Counted from the first letter of the stretch, positions 1 to 64,000 are shown. The stretch: 64,000 nt of DNA from Amoebophrya sp. A120 (GCA_905178155.1 CAJINV010000006.1:3284437-3348436), one strand, 5' to 3'. A program made the numbers and translations. Notes: generated by a model not told the origin, from the letters alone.

Positions 1-3000
1 AACGTGAAGAGGCGGTGGCAGATGGAAGTGTAAATGTAAATGATGTTGACGCCGGCGTCGAAGGAGCAAAAATGAAGGAGGCAGCACGACCCAAAGCGAC
101 GTCAGTATCACCTTCCGCCGATCGGGATCAGGAAGTTGACGGTCGTGCAGCGAAGGGAGGTGTCGGCCAGCAGACCAGTTGTGCTGTTTTCGCGTCACAG
201 AAAAATGATGGTGATAGGAGTCCAGCAGCTGCAGTTCCTGAAGCAGCCTCAGGACTACAAGCTGCCGACCCGTCAGCACGGAAAAATACTTCTGCCGAGA
301 GCCACGAACTTGAACAACCGAAGCACCGGCCCAGCAGTCAATCCTCCGGAGCCAGTTTGGAGATCTTGGGCGAAACCAAACCAGATAGCGTCGATGCTTT
401 ATCCAGCAAGAAGCCCCCACTTCTACCCCCGCAGGTACAGCAGCAAGACGAAACGGTCGGGCAAGTCGACTCCGCCGGTAGGCTGATATCAAATACAAAT
501 ATGTCTGGGTCTGGAAGAATGCAGGAGTTTGTCATGCAGATTAAGCATGACCCATGAGATCTGTGATGCATGCCCGAGCATCACAGGTTTTGAGCAGGTA
601 CCCCAATGCCTAATCCGCATGACAAATCCCCTCTTTCAGTGACAAGAAGCGGGTCCTTTTGCTGGCGGTGCATGACAGATCTCGGCATGCTGTAGAATTC
701 GCATCACAATTTCGAATCCTTCCAGACCCAGACACATTTGCAATGCATAACTGAAGGGCGCGATCAAAAAGGCGCCGGATAAGGTTTTCAAAAATTTGAA
801 ATTCCTATGCACCGCAAAAGTATCGTACTAGTAGGAATCGCATCACAAATGTCCTCAGCATGAGAAATGAAATTTGTCATGCGGACGCAACGTGACAGAA
901 AATTTTGTAATGCACAAATGCGATTACTCTTACTGCGCGATGCTCTTGCAATGCATAACTCCACGATTTTGGCAACGTGCTGATTATCGAGGCCTGCACC
1001 TTTGACAAAAAAGAACTGGCTATGATTTCCTGGCGGACGTTAGGCGGAAGTGTGGAAGCCGGGTGTATCTGTAATCGGAAATATGTGAGCCTGGATCTGT
1101 TTTTCAAAAGAGAAGAGGAGGCGGATTTTAGAAAAAGAAGCAGAGCTGGGGCAGAAGTACTCAAGAAGCGCGGAGATGGTCGGGGCACAGAAGGAGAAGA
1201 AGTAGAAGACGGCGCGAAAAAATTGCAGCTTCTACCCGGTCGTGGCCCGCCCAGCGGCCACGACGACAATTCCACCTCTCCAACTGAGCTGTTCCCCGGT
1301 TGCCACGAGGTCCCCATTCACCTTCCCTTCCGTACTGCCAAGCACGCGGGAGACGAAATTTGTCCCGCCGTGCTGCAGATGGCCGCGTCGCAGACGGCGA
1401 TGTTGTACGCATTTGAGCTGCTGGTGAAGTATCAACTGTAAAAATGTCTGGGTCTGGAAGAATTCATGTTTGTCATGCTTGTCTGGCATGACTCTTAAAT
1501 CTGTCATGGACGTTATCCAAGAGCTCCGTTTTTCTGTGAACCAGAAGCGCAGTTTGTCATGCAGAATAGGCAACACCTAGGAGCTCAGAAACTTGTCATG
1601 CTGAGCCAGCATTTGTAGCCTCATCACGAGACGCCACCCAGCATCACAAGTTCCCAGACCCAGACACTTTTACTTTTGATATGAAGCGGTTGGAGCCAAA
1701 TTTGCTTTTGAGCTACGACATCCCGGAGGGCCTGGGGCTGGTGATGTACCACGGGAGGAAGGAAAACATGCAGGTGAGACTGTCGAGAGTGCCCGCGGAG
1801 GAAAGAAGTTTCATCAATCCTTCTTTCGTTGCTGCTAGTGGTGGTGCTGTGGGACGACCAGGGACCGGAACAGGCGGTCCGAGGCCGGGGGGCGTGCAGC
1901 AGGTAGGCTTCAACCGAGGTGGTCAATTTTCAGGACTAGGACAACATCAAACTGCACCGATGCAGCAGTTGAACCAGTTTGCACAGCAGCTGCCTTACGG
2001 CAGTTCCTTCCAACAACAGCGTCCCACGATAAGCCGCGCTCCTTCCGGGGCTGCAGTGGTGGAAGTCGCAGCTGCAGGTTCTTCTTTCGCGTTTTCCCGC
2101 CAGACAGCTCATATCAAGCACGAAGGCCGTGATCGTGTAGAACAAACTTCCTTTCTCAACCAGGACAAAGAGGCCCTCAACGGAGATTTTAGCCAAGCGT
2201 CTGATGAGGACAACCAGAACCATTTCAAGATGATAAGCAATTGCAATACAAATTCTCGCACACGACGTATAAAATGCATCACAAATAATAGAAATAACTT
2301 CGCCACGTGACAACTTGGAGTGTTGTATACACTTGTCATGCGAGCCAGGAGCGAAGGCAAGGTCTGTCATGCAGCAGCCGCATTTGTACGTCGTGTGTGG
2401 GAATGAATGAATTTACAATTCATAGATGAAAGGACTGAACAACAACACGTCCTCGTCCGGAACGGAGAACGACAATGACATCTTCTATCACAGTGCACTA
2501 CTCCCCCTCCCCCCCATTTGTATAGCATGAACGGCACCACAAGCCTCAGCAACAGTGCCGGTTTCGCATGACAAATTTGCACTGGATTTTACTGCTATTT
2601 GGGCTAGTACCAGAACAACATGTCATGCAAACAGGAGTGCCAAGAAGCAAGAAAGGGTGGCTAGTGTATTTTGCATGACAGATGAGGGGGAGGTGGAGTT
2701 GTGCAGTGTCACAACCGCAACAACGCAAACAAAAACGACTCCGACAACGACTCAGATGACGAGAAAACTTTCCACGCGAAATACCCCGCGGAAAAATTAA
2801 CCGGCGGTGTGCAACTGAAGGGAAGATTGACTTTCAGCCTGTGGCGGGTGCTGCGGAAGCAGGCCAAGCTGCCGAATACGGAACTGAACACCGCCTGTGA
2901 GCAGCTGGTTGGGGAAAAATTTCCCACGTTCAGCAACGAAACGCTGAAAAAGTATTGCGAGCGCCCGGAGTTAGCGATTCACGCGATTCGGTACATGATA

Positions 3001-6000
3001 TGGATTGCAAAAGTATCGTACTATGTATGAATTGCATGATCACAAATCATGTTTGCAAGAAGAAAAGTGTGATTTTTTGTAATGCTGGTTTACCTAAAGT
3101 ACGGGTTTTGCTTGCCCCCTGCCATAGCCATTACTACGAGTACGATATGATTTTTCCAGTGCATACGCGATCCGCAAGTGCAACGCTTCGTTTAACATTC
3201 TGCAATCCATGGACTTGATGCAGAAGTGCGCCGAAGTTTCCCGGTTGCTTGGCGTGGACTTTTTCTCGGTCTTGTCCCGGGGCTCTCAGTTCCGAGTTGA
3301 GTCGATTTTATCCCGGGCGGCGCACAGCGACAAATTTGTGCTGCTGACGCCAACGAAAAATGACGTGCGGAACCAGCGGGCGCACGAATGTACGCCTTTG
3401 GTGCTGTATCAAAATGAAAAATCCTCCTCCCCATTCTAAAACGGAGATTTGTGTAGCATGATTTGCTACCACAAATCATGTTGTCATGCTAGAAGGCAAA
3501 CGATCGATGCGGACTGCAGTGCTGGCTGGCGTGGGAAGGCCTTGCATCTTTCGCATGCCCGGAGGCAATTCCAAGTGGTAAACAGCATGACAAAAATCCA
3601 GGCCACAGCTGCGTCTCTTGGCCTTCTAGCAATACAAGTCGACTTGTATACGCAAATCCAGCATCACAGACGTCCCTTTCAATATAATGGGGAGGGGGGT
3701 TTTTTCCTCGCAATATTCTGGAGCCGAAGTCCGATTTCTACTACGATCCGGTGCTGATTGTGGATTTTCAGTCCCTCTACCCCAGTATTATGATTGCGTA
3801 TAACATGTGCTTTTCGACTATGGAAGTGTCAGAATCGAAACTGACAAAGTCGAACAATTTGTAAATGCATAAAATCGATACCAGTTGGACTTGGAGCTTC
3901 AGTTAGCAAGTGGCCCATGACAAATTTCGCAAGCACCCACATCCAGCCTGTCATGCTGTTTGGGCAAAGAAGACTGCTGCTGTCGTGCTACTCTGGCAGC
4001 GAATCGCCCCCCCTAAACAGGCTTGCAATCGGTCTCATTTGCGTGCTCCCCAACACAGGCCACACGTGCCCTACATGTTACGCATTACTTTTCGATTCTG
4101 ACGCTTCCATATCGACCTGTATTGGCAGACTGGAAAACGCGGGAGACAGGATTATGGAGGATAACATTTTCCGCAGGACAAAGTTCGACAACGACATGCG
4201 GGGCGGGCCTAAGAGCGGAGCCGACTTTGAAAGCAAAAGCGGGGCAGAACAATTTCTTGGAGGTGACAAAGACCACAAATTTGACGAAGATGAAACAGAT
4301 AAAAGCAAAACCAACTTCCCTAACTGGATCAATCGATTGGTAGAGCAGTGTCTACGCGAAGAGCTGGTAAGGAAGGCCAAGATGAAAGCTACTTCAATAG
4401 AGCAAAAAGAAAATCCCGAAGATGACAAGTCCGATGACGACGACCCGACTCTGAAGGAAGAAGTCCAGTATCTTTTGCAAAAGTATCGTAATCGTAGTAG
4501 TCGCAGGTATGCATTACAAATCGAGTTGGTTAGGTAAACCCGCATTACAAATTTGATTTGTAATGCAGAGGCAATTTGTATTGCGATTTTTACTTTGTAC
4601 GATACATTTCCAGTGCATATCCAGCGCTTTCTTACCAAACCGCGGAAGCTCGGTTGTCTGCAGGACTACAAACCGAATAAGAACGCAGATCTAGACTCCA
4701 CGATCGCTCTACGCAATACAAATTTATTGCCGTACACGTACAAATACAAAGAAAAAGCATACACAATTTTTCGGTCATGCAATTTGTCATGCTGAGTAAG
4801 CTTGCTGGAGGCGTGGGTGTCGAAATAGAGCAGCTGTATTGTCAACATGCATTTCCTCCAGATGCATTTGTGCGTGTACGGAATAAACTTTCCTGTTGAT
4901 CCAGTCTCCCGAACGGCGCCATTTTTATCCAGCATTTCAAAGGCGTGGTCACGAAGATTATGCAAGAAAAAAACTGTGTAAGTGTAAATCTGTGACGCAG
5001 AAAATGCAAAACAGTTACACTTGTCGCGCTGGACACGCATCAGAGGCAATTTTCGTGCGTTTTTTCACGTACTAGCTGCGCATGACAGGTTTTCTGTGTC
5101 ATGCAGAGCAAACTTGTGATGCTATTTTTCTCTTAAGACACTTACACTTACACAGTTTTTTTCCTGGATAAAGATGATTCACGAGATTCTGCAAACCCGA
5201 ATCATGCTGAAAAAATCGCTGAAGCTCCACCGGTATCAAATGCAAAAATGTCTGGGTCTGGAAGATTCATCTGAGACTTGTCATGCACGGCGTGCGTGAG
5301 CTATGATGTCTGTGATGCATGCCCTAGCATCACAGGTCTTTTGAGGGGTTCTTGATGCCTATTCCGCATGACAAATGCCCTCTCCGCGTAGCAGAAATTA
5401 GAGCCCTTTTGCTGCTCATGCAACACAAATTTTTTAGACATCCAAATGCAGCATCACAAGTTGCATCCTTCCAGACCCAGACACTTTTGCATTTGATAAC
5501 CGGAAAGCGAAGAAGTCCGACCCGGATTTGGAGCGGCTGTTGGAAGCCCGGATTTTCGGATTGAAAATGGTCGCAAACGTGACCTTATGAATTGCAAAAG
5601 CGAATCGTACTCGTATAAATGCATTACAAATTCTCACAGCATGAGAAATAAAATTTGTAATGCGGAGTTACCTTGAGAAAAAAATTTGTGATGCACGACT
5701 GCAATTTTTACTACGAGTGCGATACGTTTGCAATGCATACACCTACGGCTACATCGGCGCGGCGTACTCTGGCCGAATGCCGTGCTGCGACTATCCTCTG
5801 CAAAAGTATCGCACTCGTAGTAATCTTCACAGTCATGCAAGACAAATTTCTTTTTCAAGCTAAATCAGCATGGCAAATTCCATTTGTCATACTGAGCAAA
5901 TTTGTAATGCGATTTCTACTAGTACGATGCTTTTGCATTTCATAGCGACGTTGCCGATGCGATTGTTTACACCGCACGAAGGACGCTGGAGGATACCATG

Positions 6001-9000
6001 CGGGTGATCGAAAGGGAGTTCAAAAACTGCGAGGTGGTTTACGGTGATACCGATTCGGTTTTCGTCCGGGTGAAAAACTGCGACTCTTTGAATACGGCGT
6101 TTAACACGGGCGAAGCCATTGTGCGGAAAATCACTGAGCGGCACCCCTGGCCCATGGAGTTGGAGCTGGAAAAGGTGTACTGGCCGTGCTGCCTGGTGTC
6201 GAAGAAGCGGTACGTTGGTTACAGCTACTCTTCCAGGGACCAGAAAGCCCCTTCGTTTGACGCCAAGGGGATTGAGACGGTGCGGAGGGACAGCTTATGA
6301 CAGTGCACAAGAACTCCCCCTCCCCTTCATTTGTATTGCACGAACAGCAATACAGACACGCCCACATGTGGAGCCTGTGCATGACAAGTTCATGCGCCTA
6401 GTGTAGTACTGTTAGGGCTCCTTCCGGAATCTGTCATGCACACAGTACCAAGCAGCAGCGCTTGGATTTGGTATTTTGCGTGACAAATGAGGGGGAGAGG
6501 GAGTTCTTGTGCACTCTCATACAGCTGCCGCTGGACGCAGGAGAATATGAAGAAGGTTTTGGAAATCATGTTCTCCGGGGTCCAGGAGCATCTCTGGGGG
6601 AAGATGGAAGGGATTAGTTTGGATAAAGAAGGAGATGACCAGGAAATAAACAACAACAAAAAGCAGCAGGTTGAAAAGAATCATGATCATCCAGACTATC
6701 TCGCTGAAAGCTCGCATGACAAGTTTTACGACGAGCCAGTGTCGTGGAAACGGAAGAAGTTGAAGTTGCAGCAGCGCAACGTGAAACTAGCGAAGCAGTT
6801 TTTCCAGGAACAGGCACTGAGGATCAGGAACAACGAAGTTTCGAAGTCCGACTTGCTGTTCTACAAAGAAACCAGAAGACTCGAGGATTACGCGGTGCTG
6901 CCAGTTCATGCGTACATTGTAGAGAAATCGAAACTGATCCCAAATAAACGTGTGCCCTACGGTATGCATTGCAAAAGTATAAATCGTTGTACCTACTAAA
7001 CTTAGCGGAAATGGCATGACAACTTTCCTCAGCATGGAGAAATGCAATTTGTAATGCGGTTTTACGACCTTGACGAGACGTACATTTATAGTGCATCACT
7101 GCGATCAGGATTACTGCGGGTACGAAGATGCTTTTGCAATGGATATACGGGATCTCCGAGGGGCACGGGCGGTTACTGGATAAAGCCCGGGTATGGAAGC
7201 TTCAGGACTGAAATCGTCAAAGTTGAAATAGTTTGTAATGCATAAAATGGGTGAAAGTTGTAACCCAGTTTCCAAGTGCCGCATGACAAATTTGGGTAGG
7301 GCCGAAATCCAGTCTGTAATGCTGTTTGGGTAAGGAAGACGCCGGCTGTCATGCTACTTTAGCAGCGCAGTTTCTACCCCTCCACAGGCTTACAATCTGC
7401 CTCACTTGCCTACTCTGCAAGACAGGCACATTGTGGGCTGCGCTTTATGCATGACAAATCATCTCAACTTTGTCGATTTCACTCCTGATACATCCATACC
7501 GGGCGCCGAAAAACTTCGTCTACCCGGACGCGGAATATTATCTGCTGAAACATTTGATCCCCGCACTGCAACGGCTTTTCACCAACATATGACAGTACAC
7601 AACTCCCCCTCGTCATTTGTAGGGCATAAACAGCATTACAAACACCAGTAGAGGTGGACCCTGTGCATGACAAGTTCATGAGCCGAGTGTAGTACTGTTT
7701 TGATTCCCAGCGGAATTTGTCATGCACGCGGTGCCACAGGGTAGCAAGTGAGTTTGGGTTTTTGCATGACGAATGAGGGGGAGTAGTTGTGCACTGTCAT
7801 ACAATATTGGGGAGGACGTGAAGTCCTGGCTCCCGATCAAGCACCGGAACCTGCTAGCGCCCGCGAAAATCCTCGGCGGGTTGCAGCTGAAGCCGGGGCC
7901 GTTGGTGAAGTTATCACAGGAAACAAGGAGTGTATACAGTTGCACATGTGTTGGAATTTCTGCATCACAAAGTTGTTCGACATGGCCAAGAAATAAACCT
8001 GTGATGCGCAGACTACAATGGAAAACACGCACGAAATAAGGCTGGCAAGCATTTTCTGCATGACAGAGGTTGTCTGTCTTGCGTGTCTTCCATTACAGTG
8101 TGTAACTGTAACACTTTTTTCTCACGATACAAGTTCTTGAAAAAGCAGTGCACCGTTTGCAAGGCGGTGATTTTGCCTGAGGCGAGTGCTAGTGCAGCTG
8201 GCGGGAAGATGCGGGAGAAGCAGATGAATCCTGCAGGAAATAAGACGAACAGCAAGATGACCACTTCCGGCCTGGTTCTCGGGGAAGGTTTATCGGCTGT
8301 GCAACTGTGCCCCAAGTGTTTGGAGCATCCGGAGAAGCTGTTGCGCATGATAGGATCTGGGGTTTCATCAACATCTGCTGGCACGACAAGAAGTGCGATC
8401 AGCAACGCAAATTCGGTGCAGGCGTATGAACTGCAAAAGTATCGTACTCGTATAAATGCATCACAAATTTTCTCCGCATGAGAAATAAAATTTGCCACGC
8501 TGATTTACCTTGAGAAAAATGTTTGTAATGCAAGAAGTGCATTTATACGAGTGCGATACTTTTGCACAGGATAAGACGCTTTATTCAACAATAAGAACTA
8601 CAGCAACGACGAACAATATCGTTGGGCAAAAACTGCTATCCTGTGCAAAAGTATCGTACTCGTACTAGTAATTGCATTCATGCATAATTACAAGTCGTCT
8701 CCCTAGTCAGAAATCCGCATTACAAATTCAGATTTTATTTCTCGTCATGCTGAGGAAATTTGTAATGCATTGTTATACGAGTGCGATACTTTTGCATTGC
8801 ATAGCTGCAAATGCGGCAGGAATTGAAGGATATCGAGGACACAACATGCGCCGACTGCGTCCAAGCCCCGCACCCGATGGTATGCATTGCAAAAGTATCG
8901 TACTAGTATAAAAAATGCATTACAAATTTCCTCAGCAAGAGAAATATATTTTGTAATGCGGATCTACCTTGAGAAAAAGATTTGCTTTTGCAATGCATGA

Positions 9001-9373
9001 TTGCAATTGCTACGAGTGCGATACTTTTGCAGTGTATAGATGGCACAGCTCTGCGAAAGTTTTGACTGCGCGGTGTTGGTATGGATTGCAAAAGTGTCTG
9101 GGTCTGGAAGGTTGGAACCTGTGATGCGCATTTCAGAACACACAAAAATCTCGCATGCATAGGTAGCAAAAGCTGCCCACTTTCTGTCACCAAAATGGGG
9201 GATTTGTCATGCGGGTTCGGCATTGCGCAAGCTTCTCGAAACCTGTGATGCTAGAGCTTCCATGCCAAACCTTCCGTGTCATGCACAAACAGCATGACTC
9301 TTCCAGACCCAGACATTTTTACATTTGATAGTTGGGAAAAAAAGCGCTGCTGTGCGAGCTGAGTGGATTGTAG
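1..9373 (+). CDS. REV3: DNA polymerase zeta catalytic subunit (family B), 5'-truncated by window, 23 introner introns
   Basis: Hand-splicing gives VLSRGSQFRVES, EPKSDFYYDPVLIVDFQSLYPSIMIAYNMCFSTCIGR, LKMVANVTYGY..SGRMPC, VVYGDTDSVFV, ELEKVY..KKRYVGY, FDAKGIETVRRD, RVPY, EYYLLKHLIPALQRLF and C-terminal Cys clusters (CTVC, CPKC, CADC, CESFDC); stop TAG 9371-9373. Confidence 0.95.
487..749. mobile_element. Introner family A (TIR ..TGTCTGGGTCTGGAAG)
   Basis: TAT..ATA TIRs, TSD gctga/actga, removal gives RLKGAIKK. Confidence 0.9.
806..957. mobile_element. Introner family B (TIR ..AAAAGTATCGTACT)
   Basis: TSD attcc/actcc, removal gives LKFHDFG. Confidence 0.9.
1430..1681. mobile_element. Introner family A
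   Basis: Perfect TSD tgaag; LVKRLEP restored. Confidence 0.95.
2234..2424. mobile_element. Introner family K, left end eroded (TAA)
   Basis: Perfect TSD gatga, frame restored. Confidence 0.85.
2486..2713. mobile_element. Introner family E (CAGTGCAC..CTCCCCCTC), right end eroded
   Basis: TIR visible, TSD decayed, removing element+5 nt restores frame. Confidence 0.8.
2999..3165. mobile_element. Introner family B
   Basis: TSD catga/cgcga, frame restored. Confidence 0.85.
3407..3715. mobile_element. Introner family C (AAAAATCC..CTCCCC)
   Basis: TSD tgctg/ttctg; PLVLEPKS restored. Confidence 0.9.
3819..4111. mobile_element. Introner family D (TATGGAA..TCAG)
   Basis: Perfect TSD tcgac; FSTCIGR restored. 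Confidence 0.95.
4469..4619. mobile_element. Introner family B
   Basis: Perfect TSD tccag. Confidence 0.95.
4710..4903. mobile_element. Introner family K, both ends eroded (boundaries approximate)
   Basis: Inner TIR ccgtacacgtacaaat/atttgtgcgtgtacgg; lies between STIA and PNGAIF. Confidence 0.7.
4959..5170. mobile_element. Introner family G (AAAAAACTGT..)
   Basis: Perfect TSD aagat; TKMIHEIL restored. Confidence 0.95.
5234..5498. mobile_element. Introner family A
   Basis: Perfect TSD accgg. Confidence 0.95.
5586..5739. mobile_element. Introner family B
   Basis: TSD gacct/cacct; NVTYGY restored. Confidence 0.95.
5792..5944. mobile_element. Introner family B
   Basis: Perfect TSD gcgac; PCCDVADAIV restored. 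Confidence 0.95.
6296..6521. mobile_element. Introner family E
   Basis: Perfect TSD cagct; RRDSCRW restored. Confidence 0.95.
6963..7145. mobile_element. Introner family B
   Basis: Perfect TSD tacgg. Confidence 0.9.
7192..7498. mobile_element. Introner family D
   Basis: Perfect TSD ccggg. Confidence 0.95.
7588..7801. mobile_element. Introner family E
   Basis: TSD caaca/caata. Confidence 0.9.
7912..8129. mobile_element. Introner, G-like
   Basis: TSD gaagt/caagt; VKFLKKQC restored. Confidence 0.85.
8425..8573. mobile_element. Introner family B
   Basis: TSD aggcg/agacg. Confidence 0.9.
8637..8803. mobile_element. Introner family B
   Basis: TSD actgc/gctgc. Confidence 0.9.
8881..9038. mobile_element. 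Introner family B
   Basis: Perfect TSD gatgg. Confidence 0.95.
9080..9330. mobile_element. Introner family A
   Basis: Perfect TSD gttgg. Confidence 0.95.
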
Positions 9374-10227: not shown

Positions 10228-10959
10228 ATGCCCTGTTTCTACCACGCCACCTCTTGGCGCAACGCCGAGAGCATCGACAGTAACGGCTTCGTCATTGGAT
10301 GGGGCGGGCTCGCCGGCCCGGGAGTGTACGTTTGCGAGACGGAAGACCAGGCCTGTCGCCGTTGCCGGGGACCAGCCGATATGAATTTTGCAAGAGTACT
10401 ATCGTATGTAGGGGTAATTGCATCACAAATTATTTGTTATTGTTCAGCATAAGAGAGCGAATTGGAATTTGTAATGCGGATTCGGCGTCAATAAGAGACT
10501 TGTGATGCATGAATGCAAGTACTACGAGTGCGAAACTTTTGCAATGCATAACCGATGTGGTTTTCCAGGTGCGGACGTGGTATTGGCCTGACGCGGCGCC
10601 GGTTCCGGGAAACTACATTATTTACATATCAACTGCAAAAGTGTCTGGGTCTGGAAGATTCTAAACTTGTAATGCTGTCGCTGGATTCATCTAAAAACAT
10701 TTGTATTGCATGACCAGCAAGAGGACTCCAGTTTGTGCTACACGGACAGGGCATTTCTCATGCGGTAGAGGCATCACAAAGTCCTCTAGCAATATGTGAT
10801 GCTAGGGCATGCATCACAGACATCATGGGTCATTCAAAATATGCATGACAAACCTGGCAATCTTCCAGACCCAGACACTTTTGCAGTTGATATTACAACC
10901 CGAGCCACGAAATTCAGTCCTATCGGTGGTATTGGGACTGCCAGCATGGGTATTCGTAG
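10228..10959 (+). CDS. 94-aa minimal ADP-ribosyltransferase/PARP-fold (Gig2-like) protein, 2 introners
   Basis: Spliced MPCFYHATSWRNAESIDSNGF..GGLAGPGVYV..GNYIIYNPSHEIQ..; YHxT, GF, GxGVY and YIIYNP follow the HYE-clade ART pattern. Confidence 0.7.
10380..10550. mobile_element. Introner family B
   Basis: TSD gccga/accga. Confidence 0.9.
10627..10892. mobile_element. Introner family A
   Basis: Perfect TSD ttaca. Confidence 0.95.
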
Positions 10960-16003: not shown

Positions 16004-17135
16004 ATGTCTTCCTCGCGCCGCGTTCCCCTTCCGGACAACGCTGGGCTGTGCCTGTCCCACCAGGGGGCCATGTACAACCTCATGATGAAACAGCGGGCGG
16101 AGCTGCAGGTGGAGCAGACCCGGCAGTACCAAAATCTGGTCCGCGACCGCGAGGAGCGGGAGAACCGCGCGAAACTTGAAGAGGAGCGGTTGCGGAAGGA
16201 GAAAAAGGAGAAGGATCGGAAAAAGGCCGAGGAAGAGCGGGCGAAGGCGTACCAGGAAGCGGTGGAGAACAAGGGGCGGTACGAAGAGATGGTGCGGAAC
16301 CGCGAGGCGGAGAAGAAACGCGCGGAAATGGCCGAGCGCGAGCGGACTGCTCTCAGGAACGCCGCAAACCAGCGCGCGTACGAAAGAATGATGCAGAAAC
16401 AGGAACAGCAGAAAAAAGACCGCGAACTCTCGATCTAGCCAAGAGGAAAGTGCATACATAACAGAGAAATCGATAGAAAACTGTGCTTCGCGTTTAAGTG
16501 TCACATCAAAGGGTCTGTTTGTCCGGAGCATGACATTTAAGAATTATCACGATTTTTCTTTCCGGGCTGCTCTCTAGATGTCAGGAAATTAAAATTTCCT
16601 CTTTTGGTGTCTCTGCATTACAGAATGGCGCCAATTTAGCAGCACAATTTTTCTTCCTTCCCGCTATGGGTGTACTTTTCTCTGTGATACTACCCGGCTG
16701 CTGAAAGAGGAGCGGGAGCGGAAAACGAACCAGACACAAGCTGTATCCTGAGTAAAAGCGTCCACACCCCCAGAAGAGTTGTCAGGCAGATTTGCATATA
16801 TCTTTATCTACCGGTACCGGAACAGCCAGCACTTGCTGCTGTATTGCGCATCCGTATGAGATGCATTTGATGTAGGCGTGTTTTGGTATTCGTAATGCTG
16901 TAACCCGGATAAGCACAAGCAGATGGCTTCATTCTCCCTTTGTGATCATACAGCTGTCCTCTTTGCTCCTGCGCTACACTACATGACAGCGAGAAACCTG
17001 TGGTGCCCAAAGCTTTTGGAGTTGTGTTGCAGAGTTCTCAACTTGACTAGGGGGCGTGGACGTTTTTGCACAGGATAAGGTAGAGGACTGCCGGCGAAAA
17101 GACGGAGAACCAATGCCCAGCAGGCCGGGGATTGA
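16004..17135 (+). CDS. Hypothetical charged coiled-coil protein with C-terminal NLS-like PAKRRR, 2 introners
   Basis: ATG 16004; E/K/R-rich helix; the ORF-track stop at 16438 is the eroded introner end; splicing gives ELSIRLLKEERERK..LPAKRRR..-TGA. Confidence 0.75.
16436..16689. mobile_element. Introner, left end eroded (TAG)
   Basis: TIR agaggaaagtgcatacata/tatgggtgtacttttctct, TSD cgatc/ctacc, frame restored. Confidence 0.75.
16744..17077. mobile_element. Introner family J
   Basis: TATCCTGAGTAAAAGCGTCC..GGACGTTTTTGCACAGGATA, TSD agctg/aggta. Confidence 0.85.
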
Positions 17136-19755: not shown

Positions 19756-19802
19756 CCACACCCCCCGCCACACCCCCCACCACACCCCCCGCCACACCCC
19801 CG
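19756..19802. repeat. Short tandem repeat, ~4 x 12 bp (CCACACCCCCCR)
   Basis: Visible directly. Confidence 0.8.
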
Positions 19803-51454: not shown

Positions 51455-54400
51455 ATGAGTGGAATGTTCAATTCCCTGTACCAAACCTACCACGGAGCAG
51501 TTGACGCGATCATCAGACTATGGAGCGAAAAAAGTTTGTCACAGTCACTAACTTGCAGGTTTTGCATTACAAATTTTCTCAGCATCACAAAGAACTTTCA
51601 CTAAACTTTCCTTGTATTGCAGAAACACTAGGGAAATCCCTAATGAAGTTCGGCTGTGATGCATTTTTACGCATGACAAACAATTTTGTATTGCAAAAAT
51701 GCGCATGAGTGATCGTGACGAACTTTTTTTCTTTGATACAGACCCCCGAGGGATCAGTACACGTTGGATGAGCTCGGGCCAAAAAGATTCCGGAGCGGCA
51801 CGACCGTCTGGCACAGGAAGGACCTCCAACTCTTCAACGAGCGGGGCCACAAACTCCAGTGCTCCCACTACCTTCCGTACAACCTCTGCGAGGGCATTGT
51901 GAATTCCGCCGCAGCAGCACGGGCAACGTCCTCCACCGGTAGTGCGCCTGGTGCTGCGGGAGCAGACACATCTACTGCGAGTAAAAAGCGGCAAGTCGAG
52001 CGATGGCCTTGCGTCGTGTACCTGCACGGGAACTCTTATGGAACTGTCAGGATTGAAATTGACAAATTTGAAAAATGTGTGATGCATAAAACCGATACCA
52101 GTTGAAAGCCCAATTCCTAAGCGGCGCATGACAAATTTCGACGTCATCGAGATCCAGTTTGTCACGCTGTTTAGCAAAGGAAGGCATCCTTTGTCATGCT
52201 ACTTTAGCAGCTCTATCGCAAACCCAAAACAGGCTTACAGTCGGCCTCACTTGCCATCCCTGCAAGAGAAACACTTCATGCCTTGCCATTTATGCATGAT
52301 AAATTATCTCAACTTTGACGATTTCAATCCTGACACTCCCATAACCCTTCTTCCCGATTGGAAGCGATGGGCGCGTTGGAAGTCGTCTTGCCCCTCCCCT
52401 GCACGCTGTTTTGCCTAGATTTTTCCGGAAGCGGACTCTCGGACGGGGACTACGTTTCTCTATGCATTGCAAACGCATCGTACTAGTAGTAAAAATCGCA
52501 TTACAAATTCGGTCACCGTGACAAAGGGATAAATTTGTCATGCTGTTTTTCCTTGGGATGGAAATTTGTGATGCATGATTGCGATTACTACGAGTGCCAT
52601 ACTTTTGCACAGGATATTCTCTGGGGTACTTTGAAAAGGAAGACTTGAAAATCGTGATCCAGTATTTGCGAAGCACAGGCTACATCGGCAGCATTGGCTT
52701 GTGGGGAAGATCGATGGGCGCGGTCACGGCTCTGCTTCACGCGGATCGGGATCACTCGCTGGCGTGTCTGGTAAGTGTATTTTTTGTTGTGATGGTGGAA
52801 TTCCGTCTTGCAAGAACTACACAACTGATGCAGTTTGTCATGCACAGTACCAGTGTGAGTACCTCCTGCAGGCACGACCTGAGTTGTTGATTCAATTATC
52901 CCACGTGTGTCAACAAAGGTACTCGACTCCCCCTTCACCCGGCTCCGGACGCTTTGCCAAGAGTTAGTGGAAAACGGGGAGTATCTTGGGCTAAAAGCCG
53001 GCATGCTCACGACCATGATTGTCGACGGTGTTATCCAGGAAAAAACACCCATCCCCATCAATTTTTTGCATGACAAACACTGCAGCTTATGCATGTTTTG
53101 CATGACATCAAATTGGATGAGTATGGGTGTTTTTTTCCTGGATAGGTGTTCTCCACTTCCTCCGTGGGACCGTCAAAGAGCGCGCCGGGCTATGCAAAGC
53201 GAAAGTATAAACTGTATTGGTGTGAAATAGCATTACAAATTCATTTTTTTTCTAGCAGGAGATGGAGGTGGATTTTCTGATGCTGAGGTATACTTAGTTA
53301 AAGAGCGAGATTTGTCATGCAGTGTTCCCATTACTATTTACGATTTATACTTTTGCAATGCATACGGGTTTGAAATCGACGATTTGCAGCCGATCGAAAA
53401 CGTCTCGAAGTCCTTTGTCCCGGCATTCTTTCTCGCGGTATCCTGTGCAAAAGTATCGTACTAGTAGGAATCGCATCACAAATTGGCTCAGCATTACAAA
53501 TTAAATTTGTAATGCGGATTTCCCTTAACATCTAGATTTGTAATGCATGGTTGCGATAACTACGAGTGCGATACTTTTGCACAGGATACGCGGGCGCAGA
53601 CGACAACTTCATCTCCCCAAACCACAGCCAGCAACTTTACGATTTGTATTATTTGGAGTTTTGTTTATAAAGATTTTGTCATGCAGTTTGTCCCATGACA
53701 TGGGCGATTTTCGTTTTCCTCGTGAAGGAGCCTCGCATGACAAACTCAGCAATCTTCGCATGCTTCTACAGGTATGCCGGCGAAGACAAATACTACCATG
53801 TGGTCGAGGGTGCGGACCACAATAGCCCCAGGCCGAGGGACGTGTATCCTGTTCAAAAACGTCACCACCCCGATTTTTTCATGCAGATTTGCAATTACAG
53901 GAACGCTTGTAATGCGCCTCCCCAAGTGAGGCACAACTTTCCGTCGTGTTTTGGCATTTGTGATGCTGGAAACAGGAGAATGGGATTGATTTGTGATGCG
54001 GGTGCCTTTGCTAACCTTCACTACAATAGAGAGACGAGAAACTTGTCTTGCTTGATTGCCAAAACTTCGTGAGCTGTGTTGCAGACTATCCTGCCTGACT
54101 CTGGGGCGGGGGCGACGTTTTTACACACGATAACGTGCAAAAGAAGATCACGAATTTTCTGCGGGACGCACTGCAGGACCCGGAGACCCGGAACATGATT
54201 AGGATGGTGGATTTATCACAGGAAAAAGCGTATAAATGTAATTAACGGAGTTTCTGATGCAATAGCAATGGCGCACGCAGAGCCACTTCGTGTTGTAAAT
54301 TTGTATTGCTTGTTAACATGCACGTTGGTCCATTTTTTCATTTTTCATGCATGGGTGGCATCTCCGAAAAAAAACCGTTAATGTGAACTACACTTTTTTG

Positions 54401-56905
54401 GCGGATAGAACTGGGAGGAAATTGTAACGGACGCGGCCTTTCCCTTCCTCGTCCCACCACAGGAGCAGCAAGGTGGTTCCATTTCTTCAAACGGAGCAAA
54501 TGTGAAATTCAATCAGCAGCCAAGCAAGTCTATCAACTGCAAATATGTCTGGGTCTGGGAGATTGCGAGACTTGTCATGCCGGTCTGACATGACTGTGAG
54601 CTCTGTATTGCGCGCCCGCGAAGAGGTCCTCTCTTCTGTCATGCAAAAACGCAGCTTTTCATGCGTAGTACGCAACTCTAAACCACGGAAAAACTTGTCA
54701 TGCTGTGGAGCGCATTGCAGTGTGCTTACTATTCCCTTCCTTGCATCACAAGGCTCCAGACCCGGACATGTTTGCATTTGATAAAGTTTTTACAGCAAAA
54801 TAACGGCGGATCGTCAGACGGAGCCACTATTTCCGGCGCCCAGGTCGAAATGCCGCCGGGGTTTCGGTATGAATTGCAAAAGTAACGTACTAGCATGAAT
54901 TCAAATTGCAGCAATACAAAATGGCTCAGCATTAATGCAGATTTGCCTTAGGAACTAGATTTGTAATACATAAAATGCATTTGATACGACGAGTGCGATA
55001 CTTTTGCACAGTATATTCGGGAGGTGGAATCGCGATCCCGGCCGGGGACGACGGTGTACGAGGATATTGAAACCAAAAGAAGGTATATCCATTGCAAATA
55101 TCGATCTGGGTCTGCTGGAAACTTGTGATGCTGGGTGGCGTATCATGAGGAGGCCACAAGTGCTGGCTCAGCATGACAAGTTTCTGAGCTTCTAGGTGTT
55201 GCCTACGTATTCTGCATGACAGGCTGCGTTTATTTTTCTGCATAACAAAAAATAAATGGAGCGCTTCGGGAACGTGCATGACAGATTTAAGAGTCATGCC
55301 AGACAAGCATGATAAACATGCAAACTCTTCCAGACGCGGACATATTTGCATTTGATAAGTTACGGCTCCATGCAGCAAGCCTGGCGGGCCTACATTATGA
55401 AAGCCTCAGAATGGAAATTCTCCAAGTGGAAATAATTTGTGATGCATGAAATGCGACACCAAAAAGACTGCATTGCAGAGAACGCAATGGAGGCCGACTA
55501 TTGTGCTTCTACGGGTTCATAATTGGGCTGCTGAGTAGCACGAGAGAAGGGCACCCCTTTGCCTAACTAGCATGACAGACACGTCGTTTTGAGTGCCCGG
55601 GAAATTTGTCATGCGCCGACTAGAAATGGTGCTTCAACTGGACGAGTCTTTTTTTTGGATTACAAATTATTTTCACTTTGAGGATTTCCAACCTGAGGCT
55701 TTCATATACGTGCTAAAGGACGGAGTCACCGGCTCGCCGTTGACGCAACAGCGAGGTAGTTCGGGACCCGTCGGAGCAGGCAGCGTCGGTGCGACCACGA
55801 CCGTTGAGAATCCTCTGAACATGATCGCCGGATCCAGCGGAAGCCCTGGTGCGAACGGACACGCTGGGACGACAGTACCAGCACCAGCCGCAGCTCCACA
55901 CCAGTTGCAATCTGGCGGCGCAACGAGTAGCACTAGTAGCGCGGCTGCAGGACCACAAGGGGGTACTAGCACAGAACCACAAGTAGATCACGCCGCAGTA
56001 GTTTTGGACACCCTTCCCCAAGCGAGGCCCGGGGGCTACCGCCGGCCACTCGCAGCGAACGACGTAAACGTCGTGAACAAGCAAAATGCAGAAACAACCG
56101 GGCCAGAAACTACTGCTGCGACCAGAGTTTCCAACCAGAGCTCAGGTTTACCGGAACGAGGGATACATAAGCAGGACTCAGTAAACACAACAGGCTCGGT
56201 AAACCTCTTCCCAAACACAGGGATAAGCGCCAGCAACTTCCTATCAATTGCAAAAGTATCGCACTCTTATAAATGCATTACAAATTTTCTCAGCATGAGA
56301 ATCTGTAATGCGGATTTTCCTGAAGAAAAAGATTTGTAACGCAACAAGACTTGCATTTATACGAATCCGATACTTTTGCACAGGATACTTCCAACAAAGT
56401 TCTTCCTCCGAAGACGACGACAACAGCGGGCAGAATTACCAGCTACGCATTACAGAAGTATCGTCTTCGTATAAAAACGCGCATGACAAATTTCTTCTGA
56501 AGGAAAACGGCAGTTTGTCATGAAGATTGAGCCATGGAAGAGCAAGTGTAGATCTGTCATGCAAAACAGCCATTTCATCGACCAGTCCGATACTTTTGCA
56601 TTGTATACCAGCAGATGCTCGACAACCTTCCCTCCGTTGAGGAACTGTCCGCCCAAATGGCGATGTACCATGCGGGACCGCAGGAATTATCGAGCAGCTG
56701 GTCGGTCGTTGAGCTGAAGGAGCTGGGCTTTCCGGAACAGAGCTGCGAGGAAGCAAAAGCAAATGGCCTGTCTTTTGAGGAAGCTGTGGAGTACTGCGTT
56801 TCCCGGAGCAGTGTGGTAGCGAACGGCGGGGGAGCAGGGGGAGCGGAGGGGGAGTTTGACCTTGGGGAGGTAGAAAGAGGCAGCGGACGGGACTCGGTCA
56901 CGTGA
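51455..56905 (+). CDS. Alpha/beta-hydrolase with C-terminal UBA-like domain; 14 introners + 2 canonical introns
   Basis: AIIRPPR, VVYLHGNSSSR, LDFSGSGLSDGDYVSLG, LWGRSMGA (nucleophile), VLDSPF, DDNFI, GADHNSPR; tail LKELGFPEQSCEEAK..FEEAVEY. Confidence 0.9.
51519..51738. mobile_element. Introner family F
   Basis: Perfect TSD cagac. Confidence 0.95.
52037..52343. mobile_element. Introner family D
   Basis: TSD actct/accct. Confidence 0.9.
52461..52616. mobile_element. Introner family B
   Basis: Perfect TSD ttctc. Confidence 0.95.
52771..52918 (+). other. Canonical GT-AG intron
   Basis: GTAAGT...AAAG; removal gives ACLVLDSPF; no TIR. Confidence 0.9.
53032..53144. mobile_element. Introner family I (AAAAAACACCCATCC)
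   Basis: Perfect TSD ggtgt. Confidence 0.95.
53191..53364. mobile_element. Introner family B variant
   Basis: TSD cgggc/cgggt. Confidence 0.9.
53439..53588. mobile_element. Introner family B
   Basis: Perfect TSD cgcgg. Confidence 0.95.
53646..53771 (+). other. Canonical GT-AG intron
   Basis: GTATTA...CTACAG; removal gives LYDLYAGEDK; no TIR. Confidence 0.85.
53845..54132. mobile_element. Introner family J
   Basis: Perfect TSD acgtg. Confidence 0.95.
54214..54407. mobile_element. Introner, G-like
   Basis: TSD ggatt/gaact, frame restored. Confidence 0.85.
54531..54783. mobile_element. Introner family A
   Basis: TSD aagtc/aagtt. Confidence 0.9.
54868..55015. mobile_element. Introner family B
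   Basis: Perfect TSD ttcgg. Confidence 0.95.
55086..55357. mobile_element. Introner family A (reverse of 1430-1681)
   Basis: TSD aggta/agtta. Confidence 0.9.
55396..55706. mobile_element. Introner family H (reverse of 47933-48237)
   Basis: TSD tacat/tacgt. Confidence 0.9.
56242..56387. mobile_element. Introner family B
   Basis: Perfect TSD cttcc. Confidence 0.95.
56444..56607. mobile_element. Introner family B (left end TAC)
   Basis: Perfect TSD ccagc. Confidence 0.9.
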
Positions 56906-59536: not shown

Positions 59537-62500
59537 ATGCGTCGCAACCAGGTGCCGACCCTGCGTCGCCCTGCCCCGCAACACAAGCGTGTTTTACAGC
59601 GGGTACCAACGCCGCTGGGTCCCGGGGCGATGGGCAGTGCGGAAGACTGTGCGAGAACTCCGGTAGCGGAGAAATTGCTTCCGAAGGACGACGAGCAGGC
59701 GGATCATTCTGTTGCCATGCCGGAATGGCAGGGCAACAACGTCGACGTCCCTTCCTCCTCCTCTTCCAGTAGTAGTTCCGCGGCTGGACCAGGAATAAAT
59801 CAAGCAGAATTAGTACATCAAAGCGAAAAGGAAAACAGAAATCCTGGTGGTGGTTCTGGTGCTGACCAGGAGAATCTTCTCAACGGCGCTGAAAGAACGA
59901 GCTACGTCGTGAAAAAACTCACCTCGCCTTCGAGAAACGTCCTGAGCACACAAAGTTCCGTCGCAAACGTCCCACCGGAAGATTCGAAATCTGAAGTAGA
60001 AGTGGTCAAGAAGAAGCGCACCCTGCAGCGCTCTTTCTGGCAAAAAGAACTACACGCCAATAACACGTGCGACACACCGTATCAAATGCAAAAAATGTCT
60101 GGGTCTGGAAGAATGCCAGACTTGTCGTGCAGGTTTTCCATGACCCATGAGGTCTGGTATGTAGGACAGAGCATGACAGATTCTGTGAGAGTTCTATCAA
60201 TATCATGCCTATCCTGCATGAGAAAGTGCCTCGCGGTTGGGTCAAAAGTGGACAGCTTTTGCTAATCACGCAACACAGATTTTTACATGATTCAGATTTA
60301 GCATGACAAGTTGCTTTGTTCCAGACCCAGACATATTTGCAATGCATACACCGGAAGTAGATGCGAGTAAATTTTTGGCGAATAGGAAGAGTGGGGACAA
60401 CTTGACCGACTTGCTGAAGAGCAACGAGCTGATTTCCACGAAAAATCAACCGGCGAAACGACGTACGCATTGCAAATATTATCGTGCCTACTAGTATGAA
60501 TTGCATAATACAAATTTGCTCAGCAGGAGAGCTGGAATTTGTCATGCTGTTTCACCCTAAGGACAAGATTTGTCATGCATAGTTGCAATTAGAAGTACGA
60601 CGAGTGCGATGCTTTTGCAATGCATACGATGCCGCCCGAGTTTATCCACAGAAAAAAACCCATCCACATCCATTTTTTGCATGACAAACACATGATTTGA
60701 TACGTGTTTTGCATCACTAATTGGATGTGGATGGGTTTTTTTCTGTGGATAGAGTTCCAACTCCCACAGTCCGGCGGGTAGAATGAAGACGCTGTATGAG
60801 GAGGAGGGAGATGATGTTGACAGTGGTAAGCAGGAGGGCGAGATGAAGAAAAAGTCCGATAAAAACGGTTCTTGTGCACCACCAGCTTCCGGCATCGCTA
60901 TCGGAAGCAAGAAGCTGAAGCCGTCGGTCAGCAACGACGGCATGTTGACATCAAGCTTCGACCCCACAACAGCGGCAGCGGTGTTTGATTTGAAGAACAA
61001 AAATCCGAATTACGACCCCCGCAGAACAACAACCACAAGTGCGAGTACGAGCAGCTGCAGACCGAGCCCACCGGGGGGCTCCGATGATCGACGCCGGACG
61101 CCGGGCGGTGGAGTTAGTAGCGGAGGAGGATTTTACACCGGTAATAGCAATAGGTCTACTTTTGGATCTTCAAGCGGGCACAGAAGGACGAACAGAGATC
61201 TTTATCAAGATAGAGACAGGGAAGATAGACGCTACGATAGAAGCAGAAGAGACCATGACAGCAGCACCTACCGCCACCGCGATTACGATAGCGGGTCCCG
61301 CTACGGACGAGATTACAGCTGGCGTGGAGCTGATACAACTGGTGAGCGCCTCCGCGATAAGGGCCACGGCAGAGGTGGAGGACGGGATTATGATTATAAT
61401 CGGAGCTACGGTACTAGTTCTTACCGGGAGCGGGATAGAAGCTTTGTCGCCCGCGACGATCGGGGGAGCAATAGAAAAAGTGAAGATCTAACAAGATCGA
61501 GAAATGAAGAGAACAGCAGGTCGTGGGGAGAACGCGGCGCAAGAGGTGGTGGTGGGAGCGCTGGTACTTCTGCCTCTTCTCGTCCCGACGGGCGGCACGT
61601 CGGGAGTACTTCTAGTGGGGGCTACGGCAGAAGTAGAAATGGGTATGATGATAGCTGTGAAATAAATCAGGAACAGCTGCGAAGCGGTCGCGTTCACTAC
61701 AAAGATTCATCTTCGTCCTCTGCTTTTCATCGTCCGAGGATTAAGAACGAAACTGCCGGTGAAGACGAGAAAGCTTCTGGCGTCGACGACAGAAGTGGTT
61801 GTGCCAACAAGGCGTCGGAACATCTTCACCAGAGCAGCAAAGCTGAACATCATGCACAGGAGGAACAAGGGGATCAAACCAAATTCGAATCCGAAACTGC
61901 AGGTCCGCCTGCTTCTACGACCAGCGCAGTGCAGCACCTGAAAGAAAAGCAGCCGAACAGCCTGAGTCCCCGGGAGTACCAGTTTCGAGAGGAAATCAAC
62001 ACGACGAAAAACATATGAGCTGCAAAATTATCGTAGTAATTGCAATCATGCATGGCAAATCTCTCTCTGAAGGGGAATCCGCATTACAAATTCCATTTGT
62101 CATGCTGGCCAACTTTGTGATGCGATTTGTATGTACCAAGTGCGATACTTTTGCAATTCATAAAACAAAGGGTACTACAACCGCAGACGTTGTGATCACA
62201 TAGGAGGTGAGCAGCCACAGATTCTGAAGGAGGAAAAGCCGGTGATTTCACCGGGAGATGAGGTGGAATCTAAAATTTCAGCAACAGCAGGTGCAGGGAA
62301 CAAGCAGGCTCAGGAACGCCGTTTGGAGGGAAATTATGACAAAAACGAACCGCACGACCACGAGCGACGACCCTCGTCTCTGAAAACAGAAGCAGATGAG
62401 GAAGAGCCGAGGTTGTACTCGCATTATCAGCAGGTCTTTGACCAGGCGCAGGGACGGGGGAATAATTTCGCGGATTTTCTCTTTTCTGATTTGGTGCAAG

Positions 62501-64000
62501 AACCTGATAGTGAACAAGGGCAGGAACTGCAAGAGACGTCTTCTGCACAGGTAGGGGATGCTAATGCGCCGTCCTCTTCCGGAGAAATAGAAAAGGTACA
62601 GGGAGTAGATGAGCAGCAGTGTCGTGAGCGAGCGACCACCGGTGGTGAAGTAGAAGAAGGCGAATTCGCAGTGGTTACTGCCTGGCTGACAGAACAAGCG
62701 GTCGCGGGCGAAGCTGCGAAAGTTGCCGACGAAGTGACAGCAGTGGGAGGAGATGCAGGGATCATCGTGGCTGCAAGCGATAATCCTCTCGCTGCAGCAG
62801 TGGTGAGGGTGACTACAGGCGAAGTGGGAGTTGTTCCTCTGCAGCACGACAATATTGAGAGTGCACTCGAGCAAGAACCACAGATGAGCGACGCCATAAA
62901 AGGTACATCGTCCGAAATATTAGATGAGGATAGCCAGAAGGCACCAGTGGGCGGCGGCGCAACTACTACACTTCTAGCGGCAACTGAGAGCACTACAAAT
63001 GACCCCCGCGCGGCACGAGAAGATGTGGGTGGCCGCGAAACGGCTGAGGGTGCGATAAAAGACCAATCCGAGCACGGGGCAGAAGCACCTGATCATGCAC
63101 AAGCGCCACAATTAGCTCCAGCCGCTCCTGCAGAGCCAGCGCAGCTGCAGAAACAAACACAAGCGGAAAACGACGTCGACATGGAAGTTGTGGAAGTAGC
63201 AGAACAAGTGCCGCTGCTCGCGGTGGCTCCTGATAGTACAACGGCACAACTACCACCATCGAGCACGACACCAGCGGTGGATCAGGAAAAGGAGCTGCTG
63301 ACCGCAAATAACGCATGCGCAGCTGCAACACAAGTGGCGGATCATGCGCAGCAGGCGCCAGAAGAAGCCGTGTTCTCTTCTACAAATATAGCGCCAACGA
63401 CTTTTCGACCCCGCAGCAATACGGTGGATGTGGTCACGGGCACCAGTGCCGCTAATGTCACAGCAGCCACATCATCTTCCTCCACCACCGCTGCATCAAA
63501 ACTTGACCACGAAGTGACAGGAGGCGTGTACCCTGTGCAAAGGTATCGTACTCGTACAAATGCATTACAAATTTCCTCAACATGAGAAATAAAATTTGTA
63601 ATGCGGATTTACCTTATAGAAAAAATGCAAGATTGCAATACGAGTACGATACTTTTGCACAGCATAGCGTGAAAAAACCTACAACTTTCAGTCCGGCAAA
63701 CAAGCCAAAATCGCTCAAGCCGCCAAATAGAAGAACCACACTGAACAACTCGTTGAAGAATCTGAACCAGTCGGGAGGACATCAACACAGCACATCCTTG
63801 CAAATTATCGACAAACACACCAACATGCAGTCTATTCGCAACCGAACATCTCTAGCGATCGACAGACTGTTGTCTTCCAGCAAGCTTGGCGGTTACTGCG
63901 AGTTCAAGTCCGCAATTGGGGAAAAGTTCCAGCCACAATACCTGCACGAAAAAGAAGAAACCTTGCCCTGTTACGTGTCCGAAGTGATCTTGCAACAAGA
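59537..64000 (+). CDS. Large low-complexity hypothetical protein (R/D/S-rich and A/E/T-rich regions), 5 introners, runs off the window
   Basis: ORFs 59537, 60783 and 62242 join in frame through short exons; frame stays open to 64000. Confidence 0.8.
60080..60348. mobile_element. Introner family A
   Basis: Perfect TSD caccg. Confidence 0.95.
60464..60626. mobile_element. Introner family B (left end TAC)
   Basis: TSD cgacg/cgatg. Confidence 0.9.
60643..60751. mobile_element. Introner family I
   Basis: Perfect TSD gagtt. Confidence 0.95.
62014..62162. mobile_element. Introner family B
   Basis: Perfect TSD aaaca. Confidence 0.95.
63529..63666. mobile_element. Introner family B (left end TAC)
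   Basis: Perfect TSD gcgtg. Confidence 0.95.

What the first reader, a model, noticed from the sequence alone, without database searches (positions are those of the whole stretch)
487..63666. One excision rule for 66 non-GT-AG introns: NNNNN-TAT...ATA-NNNNN
Seen: 66 elements from at least 11 families with different interiors all have TAT...ATA inverted termini and a 5-bp TSD (36 perfect by my count). Deleting the element plus 5 nt restores conserved protein motifs such as REV3 NVTYGY and FSTCIGR. No GT-AG is conserved at the ends, and the TSD sequence is unconstrained. Known: IR/DR-bounded non-canonical introners are reported from Amoebophrya genomes, with the splicing mechanism unresolved. 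Inference: a single end-recognition geometry serves all families. TAT termini with a 5-bp TSD fit no eukaryotic DDE superfamily I can name (Transib has a 5-bp TSD but CAC ends).
Basis: partly seen in the sequence, partly recalled or inferred. Interest (0 to 1): 0.8.

Follow-up and report, generated by a model that had tools for sequence, protein, structure and literature searches.

The report
Transposon introns with a fixed cut
Sixty-six small hairpin-ended transposon copies interrupt the genes of what is likely the marine parasite Amoebophrya, a system already published; transcript assemblies lack them to the base, every informative junction fits one lopsided cut (1 base before, 4 bases after the element), and that cut is likely made by a loosened version of the cell's ordinary splicing machine.

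Summary
I count 66 elements: 36 have perfect 5-bp duplications and 58 have exact TAT...ATA ends. Removing element+5 opens long frames (REV3, 1466 aa). RNA-like contigs from one sample skip exactly element+5 at all 24 elements I could check. Only 1 of 66 can be read GT-AG. A relative's contig shows empty sites. The system is published: Amoebophrya A120 introners with TAT-led inverted repeats (Farhat 2021), and one family noted as '5-bp TSD, TA/TA termini' (Gozashti 2025 supplement). Print calls the splice position variable or unknown. Seven mismatched duplications fix it as intron = N5-TAT...ATA-N1N2N3N4. In 382 oriented copies, tolerated end variants are polar to transcription (Fisher p=3e-7): U+2/A+3 and A-7 are kept, and the first and last bases are free. 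The likely mechanism is a relaxed spliceosome using a GU-like donor register and a branch adenosine at a fixed distance (0.6). The rival is a Euglena-like hairpin-measuring cutter (0.3). No lariat evidence exists and no transposase was found. Three unreviewed scan notes on other pieces of this genome found the system; two state the register, one the UA/A-7 pattern.

The parts
487..9330 (+). 23 elements in a REV3-like (family B polymerase) gene: 487-749, 806-957, 1430-1681, 2234-2424 (TAA), 2486-2713 (ACA; TSD 2/5), 2999-3165, 3407-3715, 3819-4111, 4469-4619, 4710-4901 (TAC..ATC), 4959-5170, 5234-5498, 5586-5739, 5792-5944, 6296-6521, 6963-7145, 7192-7498, 7588-7801, 7912-8129, 8425-8573, 8637-8803, 8881-9038, 9080-9330
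   Evidence: 1466-aa frame; DNA_pol_B in two exons; contig pieces. The name REV3 rests on recalled motifs.
10380..10892 (+). 2 elements: 10380-10550, 10627-10892
   Evidence: 447 nt removed = 171+266+10
12219..14376 (+). 5 elements in an LRR/acidic-tail gene: 12219-12423, 12734-12897, 13207-13523, 13644-13935, 14016-14376. 12219 and 13207 show that upstream TSD base 4 is kept in the mRNA.
16436..22164 (+). 5 elements: 16436-16689 (TAG), 16744-17077, 18491-18756, 21338-21642 and 21858-22164 (the last two have no recognisable TSD)
   Evidence: no RNA laid here
40643..42347 (+). 3 elements: 40643-40936, 41754-41999, 42094-42347
   Evidence: no RNA laid here
45557..49641 (+). 9 elements: 45557-45707 (ACA), 46134-46281, 46517-46693, 47119-47445, 47727-47877, 47933-48237, 48399-48540, 49142-49350, 49411-49641. 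Four are absent, with a single TSD copy, in ortholog L028.
49141..49354 (+). Intron pinned on both sides (TSD ATCCG/ATCGC): 1 nt before and 4 nt after element 49142-49350
   Evidence: table 8 (piece ends 49140 and 49645, 54 letters between)
51519..56607 (+). 14 elements in an alpha/beta-hydrolase-like gene: 51519-51738, 52037-52343, 52461-52616, 53032-53144, 53191-53364, 53439-53588, 53845-54132, 54214-54407, 54531-54783, 54868-55015, 55086-55357, 55396-55706, 56242-56387, 56444-56607 (TAC)
   Evidence: joints, all element+5; 735 aa; Hydrolase_4, below the cut-off
52771..52918 (+). Canonical GT-AG intron in the same gene (control)
53646..53771 (+). Canonical GT-AG intron in the same gene (control)
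60080..63666 (+). 5 elements: 60080-60348, 60464-60626 (TAC), 60643-60751, 62014-62162, 63529-63666 (TAC)
   Evidence: 1203 aa; no RNA laid here

Best explanation
These are short mobile elements with inverted ends and 5-bp target duplications that are missing, together with exactly 5 more bases, from transcript assemblies; the cut fits one fixed lopsided position and is likely made by a loosened ordinary spliceosome that would read the element's own ends as splice signals. INSERTION (shown by empty sites; enzyme inferred): a DDE transposase, probably integrase-like, makes a 5-bp staggered cut with no target preference. REMOVAL (register shown at seven junctions; chemistry inferred): the intron is N5-UAU...AUA-N1N2N3N4. 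The terminal UA sits at +2/+3, where GU-A donors have U and A. The inner A of AUA sits at -7 and would be the branch nucleotide, with the 3' cut counted from it rather than found by AG. The long subterminal stem would hold the two ends together. Because both ends are alike, an element works in either orientation, and because 1+4 = 5 the reading frame is restored exactly.
For: (1) Gap = element+5 at 24 of 24 readable elements. Record lengths table 8 leave no extra letters (my arithmetic: 1218 and 1004 nt removed). The DNA-like run X5 has pieces running through elements, e.g. 1652-3465. (2) Register: at least four upstream TSD bases are kept at 54214, 55396, 12219 and 13207; at most four at 53191 and 54531; exactly four at 49142. 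All 18 junctions and 8 half-constraints allow four. (3) Polarity: among 319 oriented copies in a relative plus 63 in the window, variants at end positions 1/2/3 number 0/1/20 at the 5' end and 10/6/3 at the 3' end (p=3e-7 pooled, 2e-5 for the loci alone). A second detector gave 0/1/9 against 7/5/3 in 255 copies (p=0.001). The signal vanishes on contig strand (p=0.52). Strand calling was right in 94 of 94 decided held-out pieces, with 16 undecided. Transposition alone would constrain both ends equally. (4) The two canonical introns here start G-TA, the same +2/+3 register. (5) Farhat 2021 reports 83 of 89 spliceosomal proteins, and U2/U4/U5/U6 but no U1, in A120. (6) Fixed short branch-to-end distances exist in Yarrowia, Trichomonas and Giardia. 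(7) Eight presence/absence differences against L028 each leave a single TSD copy.
Against: No lariat or branch point was observed; A-7 may matter for another reason. There is no selection for G+1 or a terminal AG in 319 copies, and only 6 of 255 are GT..AG under the rule; ordinary spliceosomes need these bases (established knowledge). Two outgroup-polarised TSD changes do create GT (window 49142) or AG (L028 ~1962), but the large set shows no such trend. The sequence before A-7 does not match a U2 branch consensus in most families. Three 3' ends vary at -7, and only 1 of 2 canonical introns has A-7. The register rests on seven junctions from one sample of one study, held as contigs whose RNA status is a guess, and three of the seven come from piece ends. 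Some end variants are shared within subfamilies and are not independent mutations. The polarity statistics come mostly from a relative with no RNA data.
Confidence: 0.6

Rival explanations
1. A separate, non-spliceosomal cut-and-ligate machine recognises the terminal hairpin and cuts at fixed offsets (1 and 4 nt), as proposed for Euglena nonconventional introns.
For: The first and last bases are free. Predicted pairing in register is 0.67-0.84 for end positions 1-3 and 9-14. The Euglena code is also a paired triplet at unequal offsets, N3-CDG...CHG-N5-6 (abstract and passages of PMC12501133). U1 was not found in A120.
Against: Tolerated variants mostly break the pair on one side only and differ by end, so base identity matters beyond pairing. 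Positions 4-7 pair at only 0.30-0.62. The conserved 5' bases fall exactly on canonical +2/+3. A tRNA-type bulge-helix-bulge geometry is present in only 3 of 385.
Confidence: 0.3
2. The cut position varies from intron to intron within the duplication, as stated in print, and the apparent register is a small-sample effect.
For: Farhat 2021 Fig. 3 legend calls the sites variable or unknown. Most junctions are slidable. Only seven junctions bound the cut at position 4.
Against: All 13 junctions or piece ends with a mismatched TSD fit position 4. By my arithmetic the chance of this under a uniform cut is about 6e-5, or 4e-4 after allowing for choosing the position afterwards. End-variant polarity fits the same register independently.
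Confidence: 0.06
3. The elements are excised from DNA (like ciliate IESs), and the joined contigs are DNA.
For: X1-X4 are only guessed to be RNA. The ends are TA-bounded. Only 15 of about 2,150 joints were displayed.
Against: The same contigs skip canonical GT-AG introns, and one ends in a poly(A) run at 50191. X5 pieces retain elements. The cut and the end constraints follow transcript direction.
Confidence: 0.04

Closest known systems
Amoebophrya sp. A120 introner elements (Farhat et al. 2021, PMC7789003; Gozashti et al. 2025, PMC12130899)
   Same: Inverted repeats starting TAT + 7 variable nt + AAA, direct repeats of 3-5 nt with a 5-bp example, many families, lengths near 150-320 nt, non-canonical junctions. 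Almost certainly the same system.
   Different: Print gives variable repeat lengths and an unknown or variable splice position. Here the TSD is uniformly 5 bp (385 of 539 perfect in a relative; at most 57 for any other length), the cut is fixed and polar, and end constraints differ by transcript direction.
Euglena nonconventional introns (Nomura et al. 2025, PMC12501133)
   Same: Paired ends, frequent direct repeats, free terminal dinucleotides, unequal offsets from a paired triplet.
   Different: The triplet is CDG/CHG at offsets 3 and 5-6, and a purine is needed at the exon start. Here the triplet is UAU/AUA at offsets 1 and 4, and the TSD bases show no preference.
Fixed branch-to-3'-end spliceosomal introns of Yarrowia, Trichomonas and Giardia (PMC2483917)
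   Same: A short fixed distance to the 3' end; by my count from their definition the branch A lies at -6 to -8, bracketing -7.
   Different: They keep GT, AG and an ACTAAC-type branch motif; these elements keep none of the three.
Ginger2/TDD transposons (Bao et al. 2010, PMC2836005)
   Same: TIR elements with an integrase-like transposase; TDD-4 and TDD-5 make 5-bp TSDs.
   Different: Their termini are TGTNR, and metazoan Ginger2 elements prefer AT-rich targets. Here the termini are TAT with no target preference, and no transposase was seen.
Fritillaria borealis non-canonical introns (as reviewed in PMC11282704 and PMC13326754)
   Same: TIR/TSD-bearing, MITE-derived introns handled by an adapted U2 spliceosome.
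   Different: They have preferred AG-AC/AG-AT ends and retain U1.

Membership tests
Amoebophrya A120 introner elements | Inverted repeats starting TAT, seven variable bases, then at least three A | tested here: met
Amoebophrya A120 introner elements | 3-5 nt direct repeats at the exon/intron border | tested here: met
   5 bp
Amoebophrya A120 introner elements | Repeated families removed from transcripts without GT-AG | tested here: met
Amoebophrya A120 introner elements | Sequence identity to the published A120 families or assembly | not testable with these tools
   No genome held; the supplement table gives no sequences
MITE / non-autonomous TIR transposon | TIRs, TSD, empty orthologous sites, too short to code | tested here: met
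Ginger (Ginger1, Ginger2/TDD) | TGTNR termini | tested here: not met
   TAT in 304 of 319 5' ends, TGT in 1; definition
Ginger (Ginger1, Ginger2/TDD) | Gypsy-integrase-like transposase in an autonomous copy | tested here: inconclusive
   Three long elements in 646 kb; five ORFs from two of them had no Pfam hit; the third was not scanned
U2 spliceosomal introns | GT/GC...AG ends | tested here: not met
   0 of 66 under the rule, 1 of 66 by sliding; 6 of 255 in the relative
U2 spliceosomal introns | Lariat through a branch adenosine; dependence on U2/U5/U6 | not testable with these tools
   A-7 in 382 of 385 is suggestive only
Euglena-type nonconventional introns | N3-CDG...CHG-N5-6 signature | tested here: not met
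   The ends are N-UAU...AUA-N4
tRNA/archaeal bulge-helix-bulge introns | 4-bp exon-intron helix between two bulges (geometry recalled) | tested here: not met
   3 of 385

The most novel reading that the evidence does not exclude
Amoebophrya runs a splicing code with no terminal-base requirement at all, N|N-UA...A-N6|, in which a transposon's inverted ends double as donor and branch site and the 1+4 offsets cancel the 5-bp duplication. Any copy landing in an exon, in either orientation, becomes a perfect intron, processed by a U1-less spliceosome or by an unknown hairpin-measuring enzyme.
Probability: 0.6. Interest if true: 0.8.

Novelty: new variant of a known kind. Interest (0 to 1): 0.58.

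Why it matters
How Amoebophrya removes tens of thousands of non-GT-AG introns without U1 has been stated as open since 2021. A fixed register with three conserved positions (U+2, A+3, A-7) turns that into specific tests: where lariats should branch, which U6/U2 bases should pair, and which point changes should block splicing. It also explains why these transposons spread through exons at little cost, and it gives a rule for correcting gene models.

Tried and rejected
No whole genome was held, so no genome-wide search for a transposase was possible. Rfam found nothing in the window at gathering thresholds. No RNA holder was listed on record. Raw-read run X8 laid only 106 partial reads at element ends and gave no junction. 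X5 swamped the joint table, so I used piece coordinates there. My first boundary 4725-4885 was wrong (it shifted the frame) and was replaced by 4710-4901. Candidate 44598-44777 was dropped. Drift of mismatched TSDs toward GT or AG was tested and not found. A bulge-helix-bulge geometry was rejected. Inverted pairing does not extend outside TAT (0.04-0.22). The long elements L029:6184-6998 (815 bp, close to the published 808-bp family 38; identity not testable) and L008:505-1608 gave no Pfam hit; L040:821-1792 had only ORFs listed. The published dinucleotide counts for A120 families (e.g. fam2: 69% of 5' ends N-T, but also 68% of 3' ends A-N) cannot both describe element+5 introns, so I did not use them. 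Detector 1 recovered 59 of 66 window elements, and 331 of 539 locus elements could be oriented (12 more were dropped for TSD under 3/5). Detector 2 oriented 255 of 394. A paper search for TA-ended Copia elements with 5-bp TSDs returned nothing. The register was not found in print in searches. I could not see figures (Farhat Figs 3, 4 and S19-S25 may bear on it). The Roy 2023 preprint appeared only as a listing and was not read, and most subscription papers are outside the library.

Full report
Observation. A scan that did not use the duplication found 68 TAT...ATA candidates. Three shuffles gave 5-9 each, none with a 4/5 or 5/5 repeat. Allowing one changed terminal base and curating by hand left 66 elements: 36 perfect 5-bp duplications, 19 at 4/5, 8 at 3/5 and 3 worse. 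Fifty-eight have exact TAT...ATA ends. No other duplication length fits. Interiors fall into 10 multi-copy groups and 15 singletons, with both orientations inside genes that all run on the + strand. Removing element+5 opens long frames, whereas +0, +3, +4, +6 and +7 do not. Two exons of the first gene hit DNA_pol_B.

What it is. Farhat et al. 2021 (PMC7789003; I read the abstract, passages, sections 10, 11 and 16, and supplement legends) describe A120 introners whose inverted repeats start with TAT, seven variable bases and three As, with 3-5 nt direct repeats and a 5-bp example. They call the splice sites variable relative to the hairpin and the border unknown. Gozashti et al. 2025 (PMC12130899; passages, supplement legends and all 58 A120 rows of supplementary file 8) list most families as TIR DNA of unknown superfamily with TSD calls of mixed length. 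They note '5-bp TSD, TA/TA Termini' for family 38. The window is therefore very likely this organism and this system; that is inferred from the motif match.

Transposon side. A pattern scan of metagenome contigs gave 141 loci from one related assembly. After dropping six redundant loci, a TSD-blind detector found 539 elements in 646 kb. Of these, 385 have a perfect 5-bp duplication, against 57, 10, 3 and 0 for 2, 3, 4 and 6-9 bp. L028 is the ortholog of window 46.7-51.8 kb and shows eight presence/absence differences, each empty site holding one copy of the repeat. The target has no base preference. No autonomous copy was found. TDD-4/5 of the Ginger2 group make 5-bp TSDs but Ginger termini are TGT (passages of PMC2836005), so membership fails on termini and the enzyme is unassigned.

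Removal. Runs X1-X4 (one sample, one study, contigs, RNA status a guess) were laid on 1-14500 (X1, X3, with X5 and X8) and on 48600-56700. One search showed 15 of 18 joints: 13 introner joints, all element+5, and two GT-AG introns. Three more junctions follow from piece coordinates. One search gave two adjacent-piece junctions and two multi-element sums, all +5. In all, 24 of 66 elements were checked and none departs. The DNA-like run X5 keeps the elements.

Register. Mismatched duplications show which copy of each base reaches the mRNA. 54214 and 55396 (joints) and 12219 and 13207 (piece ends) keep upstream base 4. 53191 and 54531 take downstream base 5. 49142 does both. A cut flush with the element is thus excluded three times and an earlier cut five times; a cut after base 4 fits every case. 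The intron is N5-TAT...ATA-N1N2N3N4. Against L028, three of the four polarised changes in duplications fall in the copy that the rule makes intronic, and the fourth is a synonymous exonic change (read by hand).

Polarity of the ends. With strand assigned from codon use (94 of 94 decided held-out pieces right), variants at end positions 1/2/3 are 0/1/14 at the 5' end and 9/5/3 at the 3' end in 319 copies. In 63 window copies they are 0/0/6 against 1/1/0 (p=2e-5 for the loci, 3e-7 pooled). A second detector reproduced this (p=0.001), and the unoriented control did not (p=0.52). Strand-biased mutation does not explain it, because the same change is absent at one position and common at another. 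In intron terms U+2, A+3 and A-7 are kept, and +1, +4, -6, -5 and the last four bases are looser or free. There is no selection for G+1 or AG.

Mechanism. U+2/A+3 is the canonical donor register, seen in both GT-AG introns of the hydrolase gene. An adenosine at -7 lies within the range of fixed branch distances reported for Yarrowia, Trichomonas and Giardia (passages of PMC2483917). The spliceosome core is reported present and U1 absent. I therefore favour a relaxed spliceosome that uses the element's stem to bring the ends together (0.6). The chemistry is inferred; no lariat was seen. The absence of any terminal-base requirement and of a branch consensus counts against it and leaves a Euglena-like hairpin-measuring system (abstract and passages of PMC12501133) at 0.3. 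The Fritillaria comparison rests on passages of PMC11282704 and PMC13326754.

Novelty. The elements, their TAT ends and a 5-bp repeat are in print. The fixed polar register and the end-specific constraints were not found in searches; figures were not visible to me. Three unreviewed notes of this scan on other pieces of the same genome report the same system: two state a fixed cut, one gives the 1+4 offsets and one the UA/A-7 pattern. I consulted them after reaching these results (notes), and they are not counted as support. Verdict: a real, known system with an apparently unpublished and directly testable splicing code; interest 0.58.

Noticed in passing
window 23945-38717: A tandem array of a 528-bp unit, then three long ORFs (31352-33637; 34660-37266, RVT_1 E=0.0014, below the cut-off; 37130-38134, no convincing Pfam hit) and a partial copy of the unit at the right end. 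It looks like a tyrosine-recombinase (DIRS-like) retroelement; that label is recalled from motifs. It holds no introners.
   Followed up: partly
all elements; window 52771-52918 and 53646-53771: The motif TGTnATGC/GCATnACA occurs 165 times in 14.6 kb of elements and 10 times in the other 49 kb. Three of those ten lie in the two canonical introns. It first appears 30-50 nt from both ends alike, so it is likely a transposase site; its presence in canonical introns suggests they are old introners or that the motif marks introns.
   Followed up: partly
element ends: End positions 4-7 are poorly complementary (0.30-0.62) between well-paired positions 1-3 and 8-14: a two-part inverted repeat.
   Followed up: partly
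window 21338-21642 and 21858-22164: Two related elements with no recognisable duplication; removing +5 still opens a 204-aa frame.
   Followed up: no
window 46700-51760 vs L028: At about 90% identity, 4 elements are found only in the window and 4 only in L028, against at least 2 shared: very fast intron turnover. L028 also has a 923-bp GC-rich intergenic insertion.
   Followed up: partly
window 20440-20880: Broken element-like sequence with one TAT end and internal motifs but no partner end.
   Followed up: no
L029:6184-6998; L008:505-1608; L040:821-1792: Long TAT-ended elements with perfect 5-bp TSDs. The ends of the first resemble those of window element 42094-42347.
   Followed up: partly
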